Positions 5,769 through 6,880 are shown, counted from the stretch's first letter. The stretch: DNA of 7,207 nucleotides from Candidatus Caldarchaeales archaeon (GCA_032249095.1 JAVVGN010000088.1:1-7207), one strand, 5' to 3'. Translations and numbers: made by a program. Notes: generated by a model from the letters alone, not told the origin.

Positions 5769-5916
5769 AACCCAGAAGGCCAGAAGGCCAGAAGGGTAAT
5801 AGAAAGGGCCACACAATCCACAGGAGGGTTTTAAAGCCACCTCGCCTGTGGATTGTAGGTTATTTAAGTTAGCCGCTCCAGCCTTCTGGGTTTTTCTCCG
5901 TCAGGCTGGAGCGGTA
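5769..5916 (-). ncRNA. Candidate structured RNA at or after the 3' end of the IS110-like ORF (copy 2)
   Basis: Three long perfect helices. 5769-5780/5881-5892 has 12 bp. 5813-5824/5845-5856 has 12 bp and a 20-nt loop. 5873-5883/5904-5914 has 11 bp and a 20-nt loop, and spans the stop codon at 5901-5903. The loop of the last hairpin forms most of the 3' strand of the first helix, giving a pseudoknot-like or alternative fold. The layout matches 300-440. Confidence 0.45.
5772..5795. repeat. Tandem octamer (CCAGAAGG) x3
   Basis: Perfect copies at 5772-5779, 5780-5787 and 5788-5795. The complement CCTTCTGG occurs once, at 5882-5889. Confidence 0.9.
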
Positions 5917-6880
5917 ATCCCGGCCTCCTGGGCCTTCAAGGTTAGCCAGATTGTCTTCAAGACTTCTTCTATGTCCCTGCCATTTATCCTGTATCCCTTG
6001 ATGCTTAGTGTCAGTGTTTCGAGTGCGTGTCTAGCCTTTGTTTTGTGGTAGTGGGTCCTCCTATCCCTGTCCCATAGGCCGAAATAGTTCCTGACCCTAC
6101 GCCAAGACGACCACTCCGCATAGGTAAAGACCTCCACAAGAGCCTCCAAGGCCGAAGATCTACCACCTACCCCCAACACCTCAACGAGTCCATTGTAGGC
6201 CAGATATCTTTTACCGGCCTCCTCGGCTATCTGCCTCGCCATCTCCACCATCTGCTTCTCTATCGAGGAGATTGCTGGCTTCAGAACCTCCTTCTCAGCA
6301 TCAGACAAAGCCTTATACTTGTTGAGTAATTGTTGATGAGTCTTCAATAGAGACCTATGGGCCAGAATCATCCTCCTCAAGACTAGGAAGTCCTCAGTAA
6401 CACTCCTAAACCACCTCTCCTAATACTCATCAATGCCCTTATGTCTCCCCTAGAGCTCTTCGGCAGCTTATGCTCTCCGCGCACCTTCTTAAACAATGTA
6501 AGCCTCCTAAGATAGTATACCTCTACCCCTCTCCTTAGTAGTTCTATCGAGCCGTCCGTGTGCTGGGGTGGTATTGTATCCATGAATAGCTTGTCTCCGG
6601 GCCCAGCAGGGATCTCGCCGAAGCTGTCTACATGCTTGAAAGTTATTCCGTCAGTAGTATATGTTATCCTGAAGCCCTCACCATTCTTCTTAGTCTTATG
6701 AACGTCTGCGTAGAACTTCAATATCACTGCACCCCCTCGTTCCGTGTCTTTATCTCTTATGGCCTTGCAACTATGTGGAACCTCTCCACCTGCTCCCTCT
6801 CTAGGACTGTCGAGTTGAGTGGTGGTAGGTGGTAGATTCTCGGCGGCGTCTCTCCCACCGTCGCCTCGTATATTAGCCAT
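5901..6880 (-). pseudogene. Divergent IS110-like (DEDD-type N-domain + Tnp20-like C-domain) transposase/recombinase, frameshifted as assembled
   Basis: ORF 6383-6880 carries YADVHK (cf. GIDxxK), LFMDT (cf. xxEATG) and KSSRGDIRALM (cf. KTDxxDAxxLA). ORF 5901-6380 carries a long helical region, then LGVGG (cf. PGIG) and YFGLW (cf. GL.P). The two ORFs join when one nt is added near 6419-6423. Without it, the C-terminal frame hits a TAG at 6420-6422. Compare ATA GAG GAG AGG TGG in copy 1 with ATT AG- GAG AGG TGG here. The likely real start is TTG 6721 or GTG 6727. The 50-aa extension from ATG 6880 overlaps the promoter-like module. Confidence 0.55.
6717..6800 (-). promoter_or_regulatory. Shared 5' promoter/leader module, copy upstream of the IS110-like gene
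   Basis: Homologous to 2168-2250. On the minus strand it reads AGGCCATAAGAGATAAAGA, with a TATA-like box at 6747-6754, 26-33 nt upstream of TTG 6721. This is the same spacing as in the other copy. Confidence 0.55.

What the first reader, a model, noticed from the sequence alone, without database searches (positions are those of the whole stretch)
5901..6880. IS110-like architecture but non-canonical catalytic positions
The conceptually repaired protein (about 270 aa from TTG 6721) follows the IS110-family layout. It has a first-Asp motif (YADVHK), an acidic motif after strand 4 (FMDT; the family usually has E), a K..D..A..L motif, a long coiled region, a G-V-G-G hairpin and a GL motif. Where the family has KTDxxDA, this protein reads KSSRGDI, so the first Asp is replaced by Ser. 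After YFGLW it reads DRDRRTHYH, with no Ser at the place where the family carries its nucleophilic Ser (…SG…). The paralogue at 445-978 reads GLFKPIRGRRKF there, also with no Ser. The proteins are also shorter than typical members. This suggests either a very divergent active lineage or a catalytically altered or domesticated derivative. The motif comparison is from memory of PF01548/PF02371-type proteins and was not computed.
Basis: partly seen in the sequence, partly recalled or inferred. Interest (0 to 1): 0.6.

Follow-up and report, generated by a model that had tools for sequence, protein, structure and literature searches.

The report
Serine-less IS110/TasR-like archaeal mobile element
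The gene is a broken copy of an undescribed family of hot-spring archaeal mobile elements, whose protein has the fold of the RNA-guided IS110 and TasR enzymes but lacks their usual catalytic serine and one aspartate, and which carries a folded RNA whose two variable strands appear to spell out the insertion site.

Summary
Observation confirmed. Window 5901-6721 (-) is one gene broken by a 1-nt deletion near 6419-6421. It reads KSSRGDI where relatives read KSDENDA, and it has no conserved Ser after the GL motif.

The fold is IS110/TasR-like: a RuvC-like domain, a coiled coil and a helical Nop-like domain. The AF2 model has pLDDT 91.8. VIA-align gives Z 15.8 to TasR 9mty, 14.2 to ISCro4 and 14.1 to IS621. 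No member reaches the Pfam cut-off for PF01548, and none matches PF02371 or PF01798 at E<=1.

The odd residues are lineage-wide, not decay. The first Asp of DxxD is missing across a whole clade that remains intact and multi-copy. In one complete related genome, all 8 copies examined (of 9 matches) lack it and 7 are intact. No Ser is conserved anywhere in the superfamily. The family has about 60-70 loci in this 2-Mb Caldarchaeales-like genome and was found in 27 of 61 genomes searched (own included).

The gene's last codons overlap a ~160-nt structured RNA (5749-5912, -). The RNA shows strong covariation across genera and has two variable 13-nt loop strands. At one insertion with an empty site in three sister genomes, the loops match the two strands of the target. 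In the window, one loop is complementary (12/13) to 5690-5702, at about the point where related copies stop matching.

Most likely this is an RNA-guided mobile element that uses RuvC-only chemistry. Other agents of this scan reached the same reading on other pieces of this genome.

The parts
5901..6721 (-). Family A gene (RuvC-like + coiled coil + Nop-like domain). It is broken by a 1-nt deletion near 6419-6421. The N-terminal half is 6383-6721 and the C-terminal half is 5901-6380.
   Evidence: fold
5749..5912 (-). Structured RNA that overlaps the last codons (APA*) of the gene. A long stem P1 is formed by block 1 (5873-5912) pairing with block 2 (5750-5795). P1 encloses an internal loop and an apical hairpin P2.
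   Evidence: CM R1 hit 96.5 bits, E 7e-23; MFE -76.9 kcal/mol, z -7.0; covariation
5860..5872 (-). 5' loop strand L5 (CUAACUUAAAUAA), a candidate guide segment
   Evidence: 12/13 complementary to 5690-5702
5809..5859 (-). Apical hairpin P2. Its length varies among copies and its stem covaries.
5796..5808 (-). 3' loop strand L3 (CCCUUUCUAUUAC), a candidate guide segment for the other DNA strand. Its match cannot be tested here because the 5' junction lies beyond the contig end.
   Evidence: analogy with the C42 copy
5703..5748 (-). 3' tail of the element, with a conserved pyrimidine block (ACCCCTCC..CTCTTTTCC)
5690..5702 (-). Site complementary to L5 (12/13), 47 nt past the RNA end, at about the point where the copy on C112 stops matching. 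It is read as the right half of the insertion target. Two closer copies (C16, C63) stay similar to about 5675, so the exact end is not fixed.
   Evidence: 0 of 200 shuffles as good; the same position (44-57 nt) in 9 of the 10 best cases
6718..7207 (-). orfU, an upstream gene of unknown function. It is frameshifted by a 1-nt deletion near 6950 and runs off the contig. Its TGA stop overlaps the TTG start of the family A gene.
445..1078 (-). Fragment of a second paralogue (C-terminal variant subfamily). The RuvC half is missing and no RNA is detected.

Best explanation
The gene is a decayed copy of an undescribed family of mobile elements of Caldarchaeales (Aigarchaeota-type) archaea. The protein of about 273 aa has an N-terminal RuvC/RNase-H-like domain, a long coiled coil and a helical Nop-like RNA-binding domain. 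This is the architecture of IS110 bridge recombinases and of TasR, but it lacks the beta-hairpin that carries the IS110 serine nucleophile. I infer that the protein binds the ~160-nt RNA encoded across its own stop codon. That RNA is a long stem enclosing an internal loop whose two 13-nt strands vary from copy to copy. The 3' strand has the sequence of the left half of the insertion site plus a short core, so it would pair with the bottom strand. The 5' strand is complementary to the core plus the right half on the top strand. This is the two-strand reading logic of one bridge-RNA loop or of a tigRNA. With no serine, cutting or joining has to come from the RuvC-like site. In family A that site is reduced to three carboxylates (D6, D48, D93), as in a DDE triad, because the first Asp of DxxD was replaced in the clade's ancestor.

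Shown here: the fold, the residue replacements and their spread across the clade, the RNA structure and its linkage to the gene, one insertion with an empty site in sister genomes, and loop-to-flank matches for a subset of copies.

Inferred: RNA binding by the protein, catalysis, and whether the protein inserts the element itself.
For: Fold: AF2 pLDDT 91.8, pTM 0.84. Foldseek gives ISCro4 E 3e-6, IS621 E 1e-5 and TasR E 1.7e-5. VIA gives TasR Z 15.8 over 242 aligned residues, ISCro4 14.2 and IS621 14.1.

Sequence: the superfamily profile hits TasH at E 4e-6 and IS621 at E 8.5e-4, with K-S-D-E-N-D-A aligned on KTDTVDA.

Residues: most distant relatives read KSDENDA and family A reads KS(A/S/T)RGD; D93 is invariant, D6 and K88 are nearly invariant, and D48 is nearly invariant in the larger alignment. 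In complete genome G024 all 8 copies examined (of 9 matches) lack the first Asp, and 7 are intact.

Mobility: about 60-70 loci in the genome, many broken. A 2121-bp insertion on C42 is flanked by an 8-bp direct repeat and is absent in three sister genomes that keep the same 45-nt spacer.

RNA: 36 of 53 foreign loci, chosen only by the gene's 3' end, hit the model on the same strand at the gene end. All 36 pairs show compensatory changes, and 92.8% of cells are paired against 59% in shuffles. GU/UG pairs number 108 against 20 AC/CA, which points to RNA from the sense strand.

Guides: at C42, L3 matches 12/14 (same sense) and L5 matches 11/13 (complement) across the reconstructed target. In the window, L5 matches 12/13. 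Self versus non-self tests give p 0.044 and 0.035, and the opposite-orientation controls are not significant.
Against: No biochemistry and no RNA-seq. Loop-to-flank matches are clear for only a minority of copies. In other genomes the self versus non-self test is not significant (p 0.11 and 0.21). The one full empty-site case is a family B element with the canonical KTDENDV motif, not family A. The covariation alignment was fitted to the model's structure, which biases the pair counts. How each copy acquires guides for a new site is unexplained. A second, donor-binding loop was not found. The window copy is frameshifted in both genes, so it is inactive itself.
Confidence: 0.55

Rival explanations
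1. The protein is only an RNA-guided homing or maintenance nuclease, like TasR or TnpB. It would cut uninterrupted target sites, and the element would spread by recombinational repair or through another enzyme such as orfU. The protein itself would not join DNA.
For: TasR is the best structural match. There is no serine. The two loops spell out the uninterrupted site, which the insertion then splits. LAGLIDADG homing-endonuclease genes occupy the same slot after orfU in other cassettes. The RNA overlaps the 3' end of the ORF, as omega RNA does in TnpB elements.
Against: An 8-bp direct repeat flanks the C42 insertion. Dozens of copies sit at unrelated sites with copy-specific loops, so de novo insertion has to occur somehow. 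No separate transposase was identified, and orfU has no Pfam match.
Confidence: 0.25
2. Family A proteins are catalytically dead passengers. Their elements would be non-autonomous and mobilised in trans by relatives that keep the full DxxD motif, such as family B in this genome.
For: The first Asp of DxxD is lost. Family B with KTDENDV coexists in this genome and shares the same RNA scaffold and the same APA* ending. The only complete empty-site case is a family B element.
Against: In the complete genome G024, all 8 copies examined (of 9 matches) lack the Asp and 7 are intact. All four copies examined in G021 also lack it. D6, D48 and D93 and about 60 other positions are invariant within family A, which indicates purifying selection.
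Confidence: 0.1
3. The 3' structure is not a guide. It would be a terminator or stability element, or a DNA-level inverted repeat that marks the element end, and the loop-to-flank matches would be chance.
For: Block 2 is roughly the reverse complement of block 1, so the element is quasi-palindromic. A T-rich pyrimidine tract follows it. Guide tests in other genomes are not significant.
Against: The 5:1 excess of G-U over A-C pairs argues for RNA from the sense strand and against a DNA repeat. The loops are hypervariable while the stems are conserved. L5-complement hits cluster 44-57 nt downstream in 9 of the 10 best cases. At C42 both loops fit one reconstructed target. Opposite-orientation controls are flat.
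Confidence: 0.1

Closest known systems
IS110-family bridge-RNA recombinases (IS621, PDB 8WT6; ISCro4, PDB 9T56), and the IS1111 group for the position of the RNA
   Same: The order of RuvC-like domain, coiled coil and helical RNA-binding domain is the same. The K-S/T-D-x-x-D-A helix motif is present in the wider superfamily. The element is multi-copy. The structured RNA has an internal loop whose two strands read opposite DNA strands around a shared core. The RNA lies downstream of the gene, as in IS1111-type elements.
   Different: There is no serine nucleophile or beta-hairpin. PF02371 is absent and PF01548 stays below its cut-off. The protein is shorter, at about 273 aa. Only one guide loop was found, not separate target and donor loops. 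The loops are copy-specific rather than one fixed target per element. Family A also lacks the first Asp of DxxD.
TIGR-Tas TasR (PDB 9MTY; Faure et al. 2025, PMC12045711)
   Same: It is the best full-length structural match (Z 15.8, rmsd 3.5 A, 242 residues). It has a RuvC domain plus a Nop-like domain without serine, a similar size (292 aa), and a dual-segment guide that reads both DNA strands. One described TasR comes from a Thermoproteota archaeon.
   Different: There is no tandem TIGR array; each gene has a single long-stem RNA that overlaps its stop codon. The profile does not hit TasR by sequence at E<=10; only the Nop region of TasH is hit, at E 4e-6. The KSDENDA motif is of the IS110 type. 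The genes behave as a proliferating mobile element.
Archaeal Nop5 (box C/D sRNP; PDB 3PLA)
   Same: The helical Nop-like domain and the coiled coil are similar (Z 7.5). Vaysset et al. (10.1101/2024.06.21.599552) proposed that Nop5 descends from an IS110-like ancestor and noted that no extant archaeal intermediate was known.
   Different: PF01798 does not match. hhalign probability against this genome's own Nop5 is 0.1%. The genome keeps a separate canonical Nop5. No box C/D motifs were identified in the RNA.
TnpB with omega RNA (IS200/IS605)
   Same: A RuvC-type protein has its guide RNA scaffold overlapping the 3' end of its own ORF, at the element's right end.
   Different: The protein fold outside RuvC is unrelated. 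The guide segments here are internal loop strands, not a 3' extension beyond the element.

Membership tests
IS110 family transposase (PF01548 + PF02371) | N-terminal DEDD_Tnp_IS110 domain scoring above Pfam's gathering cut-off | tested here: not met
   No hit for the window halves or the intact paralogue. Five of 34 superfamily members hit at E 0.01-0.1 with 13-16 bits against a cut-off of 29. The genome scan with PF01548 found nothing over the cut-off.
IS110 family transposase (PF01548 + PF02371) | Complete DEDD tetrad (D in strand 1, E/D after strand 4, and DxxD in the helix) | tested here: not met
   Family A keeps D6, D48 and D93 but has A/S/T/G at the first Asp of DxxD. Sister clades, including family B of this genome, keep KTDENDV or KSDENDA.
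IS110 family transposase (PF01548 + PF02371) | C-terminal Transposase_20 domain with the conserved Ser nucleophile (S241 of IS621) | tested here: not met
   PF02371 has no hit at E<=1 in any of 34 members. The column aligned to the IS621 Ser, extrapolated one residue past the GLTPRRYE alignment, holds T223 in family A and is not conserved across the superfamily. The model has helices only after residue 110.
IS110 family transposase (PF01548 + PF02371) | Overall fold of RuvC-like domain, coiled coil and helical RNA-binding domain | tested here: met
   Foldseek E 3e-6 to 3e-5 with TM 0.59-0.65. VIA Z 14.0-14.2 over 251-254 residues.
IS110 family transposase (PF01548 + PF02371) | Bridge RNA with separate target-binding and donor-binding loops | tested here: inconclusive
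   One conserved RNA with a single variable internal loop was found. No second loop was found. The upstream region is protein-coding (orfU), not RNA.
TIGR-Tas (TasR) | Nop-like domain fused to an N-terminal RuvC domain | tested here: met
   9mty_A Z 15.8, rmsd 3.5 A, 242 of 273 residues. The profile hits the Nop region of TasH at E 3.9e-6.
TIGR-Tas (TasR) | [quoted passage not shown] | tested here: not met
   TRF finds no array in the window. Each gene is followed by one ~130-160-nt long-stem RNA.
Nop5/Nop56/58 (PF01798) | Nop domain detectable by profile | tested here: not met
   No PF01798 hit. hhalign against the genome's own Nop5 gives probability 0.1%. Structural Z is only 7.5.

The most novel reading that the evidence does not exclude
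A serine-independent, RNA-programmed DNA insertion or homing system in archaea. A ~270-aa RuvC+Nop-like protein would use one cis-encoded RNA loop, with two copy-specific 13-nt strands, to address both strands of its insertion site. The family sits between IS110 recombinases, TasR and Nop5 in sequence and structural similarity. It could be the kind of archaeal intermediate that Vaysset et al. reported as missing.
Probability: 0.45. Interest if true: 0.9.

Novelty: new variant of a known kind. Interest (0 to 1): 0.78.

Why it matters
IS110 bridge recombinases and TIGR-Tas are recent, intensively studied programmable DNA tools, and their evolutionary link to the Nop5 snoRNP proteins is debated. 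A compact archaeal family that keeps the RuvC+Nop architecture would bear on both topics. It dispenses with the serine, and in a whole clade with one of the four acidic residues. It carries a single two-strand guide RNA whose sequence tracks each copy's insertion site. Such a family would show that RNA-guided insertion or homing can run on RuvC chemistry alone. It would also offer a smaller programmable scaffold from thermophiles and would fill a gap between transposon, nuclease and snoRNP lineages. I found no description of it in the papers searched.

Tried and rejected
1. Pfam and NCBIfam on the halves and on the intact paralogue gave nothing meaningful.

2. A single-sequence search against the PDB gave only noise.

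3. The first AF2 run, with 20 close homologues, failed for the N-terminal domain (pLDDT<50). It succeeded after distant representatives were added.

4. I first took the 260-460-bp repeat upstream of the gene for a shared leader or bridge RNA and looked for box C/D motifs. The alignment of 28 copies shows synonymous third-position changes and an open frame that ends at the start codon of the gene, so it is a protein gene, orfU. The idea was rejected.

5. Rfam found only a sub-threshold sR53 hit at 7134-7164.

6. An ungapped search for loop matches within +/-3 kb gave about the chance number of hits overall. Only position-restricted and gapped searches were informative.

7. The guide-to-flank test in 15 elements of other genomes was not significant.

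8. A second profile search of the 5.8-billion-protein database returned only family A again.

10. A fuzzy-regex genome scan timed out.

11. An alternative RNA conformation with two local hairpins cannot be excluded from covariation, because the four arm sequences are equivalent.

12. Coordinates of the model are not available to me, so I could not measure the geometry of D6, D48 and D93.

Full report
**The observation**

On the minus strand, ORF 6383-6880 and ORF 5901-6380 are two halves of one gene that starts at TTG 6721. Alignment with the intact paralogue on contig C112 (92% DNA identity) shows one 1-nt deletion near 6419-6421, in a GGAGAGAGG run. The second paralogue in the window (about 445-1078, minus strand) is a fragment that matches only residues 90-208 of the intact protein.

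**Family size and spread**

- The window is contig C88 of a 2.03-Mb assembly in 146 contigs.
- The two gene halves find 71 and 57 matches in that genome. A six-frame scan shows about 15-18 full-length open copies and many broken ones, often at contig ends.
- More than 700 relatives exist in the large protein database. All are unnamed and none has a Pfam domain.
- Named genomes that carry the family are Archaeon HR02, Candidatus Caldarchaeum subterraneum and Candidatus Calditenuis fumarioli.
- Of the 61 genomes searched (this one and 60 relatives), 27 have a match, with 1 to 40 per genome.

**What the protein is**

- Pfam and NCBIfam give nothing for the halves or for the intact copy P0001.
- A search of 1.84 billion representatives with a family profile found 167 relatives.
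- Most distant relatives read K-S-D-E-N-D-A where family A reads K-S-(A/S/T)-R-G-D. D93 is the only invariant column; D6 and K88 are nearly invariant, and D48 is nearly invariant in the larger alignment.
- A second family in the same genome, family B of about 284 aa, has the same layout with KTDENDV.
- The superfamily profile hits two solved proteins. One is TasH (E 3.9e-6, Nop region). The other is the IS621 transposase (E 8.5e-4), with KSDENDA aligned on KTDTVDA and the GL motif aligned on GLTPRRYE. Extrapolating one residue past that alignment puts the IS621 serine opposite T223 of family A. T223 is conserved in family A but not in the superfamily.
- PF01548 appears only below threshold, in 5 of 34 members. 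PF02371 and PF01798 do not appear.

**Structure**

- With 64 diverse sequences, AF2 gives pLDDT 91.8 and pTM 0.84. The model has a five-stranded alpha/beta N-terminal domain, a long helical hairpin and a helical C-terminal domain, with no strands after residue 110.
- Foldseek ranks ISCro4, IS621 and TasR at the top, with E 3e-6 to 2e-5 and TM about 0.6.
- VIA-align gives TasR Z 15.8 (242 residues, rmsd 3.5 A), ISCro4 14.2 and IS621 14.1. TasH scores 13.1 over the Nop domain only, and Nop5 scores 7.5.
- The genome has its own canonical Nop5, which is unrelated by hhalign. It has no canonical IS110.

So the fold claim holds, Pfam-level membership fails, and TasR is at least as close as IS110.

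**Are the odd residues decay?**

No. The Asp-less state defines a clade: family A, its C-terminal variant subfamily and several deeper branches. In the complete single-contig genome G024, all eight copies examined (of nine matches) lack the Asp, and seven are intact at 270-306 aa. All four copies examined in G021 also lack it. Other genomes have H or canonical D at this position. Within family A about 60 positions are invariant. No serine is conserved in the superfamily. The family is multi-copy and decaying, so 'domesticated' does not fit.

**Surroundings, upstream**

The 260-460-bp repeat upstream of the gene is not a leader RNA. In 28 copies it varies at synonymous third positions. It forms an open frame (orfU, about 134-170 aa, no Pfam match) whose TGA stop overlaps the TTG start of the gene. 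In the window, orfU carries its own 1-nt deletion near 6950. The same orfU module precedes family A, family B or a LAGLIDADG/HTH gene at different loci. A broken gene of that third kind lies at 1202-2262 in the window.

**Surroundings, downstream**

- Families A and B both end in ...APA*. Their last codons belong to a conserved block, GCUCCAGCCUGACGGAGAAAAGACCCAGAAGGCUGGAGCGG.
- This block is followed by 13 variable nt, a hairpin of variable length, 13 more variable nt, and a second block that is complementary to the first.
- RNAalifold and single-sequence folds give one long stem that encloses an internal loop and an apical hairpin. The window copy (5750-5912) folds at -76.9 kcal/mol with z -7.0.
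- A covariance model finds about 36 forward copies in this genome; the window hit is 5749-5912 at 96.5 bits.
- In 36 of 53 loci from other genomes, chosen only because they contain the 3' end of a homologous gene, the model hits the same strand at the gene end.
- On that alignment all 36 pairs show compensatory changes, and 92.8% of cells pair against 59% after shuffling and about 40% after sliding. The alignment was fitted to the model, which inflates these counts.
- G-U pairs outnumber A-C pairs 108 to 20. This points to RNA from the sense strand rather than a DNA repeat.

**Mobility and the loops**

- A 6-kb stretch around the family B copy on contig C42 is syntenic with three sister genomes, except for 2121 bp on C42 that lie between two copies of AGAATAGG (8274-8281 and 10395-10402).
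- Removing the insert leaves the same 45-nt spacer that the sister genome G001 has between the flanking stop codon and the next conserved block.
- Read in the element's sense, the restored target is TGATAGC-CTATTCT-CTCCTCA.
- The 3' loop strand of that copy (UCAUAGCUCUAUUU) has the same sense as the left half plus core (12 of 14, with one bulge).
- The 5' loop strand (UCAGGAGAGAAUU) is complementary to the core plus right half (11 of 13).
- In the window, the 5' strand (5860-5872) is complementary at 12 of 13 positions to 5690-5702. This site begins 47 nt past the RNA end, where the copy on C112 stops matching. The closer copies on C16 and C63 remain similar to about 5675, so the end is not exactly fixed.
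- Among the ten best 5'-strand complements, in this and other genomes, nine lie 44-57 nt downstream of the RNA.
- Self versus non-self comparison in this genome gives p 0.044 for the 5' strand against the downstream flank; scores of 9 or more occur in 10% of self pairs and 0.4% of non-self pairs. It gives p 0.035 for the 3' strand against the upstream region. The opposite-orientation controls are flat.
- The same test on 15 elements of other genomes is not significant.

The guide reading is therefore supported but not proven. The only full empty-site case is a family B element.

**Mechanism**

I take the protein and RNA to form an RNP that reads both strands of a site, as one bridge-RNA loop or a tigRNA does. 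Chemistry would come from the RuvC-like site alone, because the serine module is absent. In family A, three carboxylates remain, the number that DDE enzymes of the same fold use; this last point rests on general knowledge. Whether the protein inserts DNA or only cuts empty sites, as in homing, is open. The LAGLIDADG genes in the equivalent slot and the closeness to TasR favour the nuclease reading. The direct repeat and the many unrelated sites favour insertion. How new guides arise is unexplained.

**Literature and earlier notes**

Vaysset et al. (10.1101/2024.06.21.599552) found no homologues beyond IS110, Nop5 and Prp31. They inferred that Nop5 does not descend from any extant archaeal IS110 clade. 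Faure et al. (PMC12045711) describe TasR, including one from a Thermoproteota archaeon, always with TIGR arrays. Searches for a serine-less archaeal form found nothing. Earlier agents of this scan reached the same reading on other pieces of this genome. I consulted those notes after forming my own reading, and I do not count them as evidence.

Noticed in passing
window 6718-7207 (-); L076:1003-1515:-; L077:732-1136:+: orfU is a gene of about 134-170 aa with no Pfam match. It is repeated more than 30 times in the genome and its stop codon overlaps the start of the next gene. It precedes three unrelated gene families (family A, family B, LAGLIDADG/HTH). A short variant lacks an internal ~190-nt segment bounded by GRV/DRV codons.
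   Followed up: partly
window 1202-2262 (-): A LAGLIDADG_3 plus HTH gene (Pfam E 2e-14) is split into two ORFs. It belongs to a multi-copy family that sits in the same position after orfU as the RuvC-Nop genes.
   Followed up: partly
window 5772-5795: The 8-nt unit CCAGAAGG is present three times in tandem inside block 2 of the RNA. Other copies have two, so this copy has a slipped duplication in the stem.
   Followed up: no
window 5703-5748 and all related loci: A pyrimidine block (ACCCCTCCCCC..CTCTTTCC, then T-rich) follows the RNA in every genome examined. It may be a terminator or part of the element end.
   Followed up: no
G000:C42:9294-9906 (L121/L182): A ~600-nt repeat without convincing ORFs replaces orfU upstream of several family A and B copies (C8, C10, C20, C91, C142 and others). 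The element therefore has at least two alternative 5' modules.
   Followed up: no
G000:C112 ~2430-2455; C83; C143: Another repeat that begins GCCTTGTGGCTTAATTCCTGGGCTCTTTCG abuts the 3' end of some elements and replaces their flank.
   Followed up: no
P0001 residue 223 (window ~6051-6053): A Thr that is nearly invariant in family A falls in the column extrapolated to align with the IS621 serine nucleophile. It lies in a loop of lower confidence, and it is not conserved outside family A.
   Followed up: partly
window 7153-7207 and G000:C40:17279-17333: The last 55 nt of the window are identical to the end of contig C40. The two contigs are probably joined through this repeat.
   Followed up: no
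G000:C1:70631-70759 with flanks: An insertion of about 0.93 kb holds only the C-terminal two thirds of a family B gene plus the RNA. It is flanked by CGCTACTA on both sides, with loop matches on both sides. It may be a non-autonomous derivative.
   Followed up: partly
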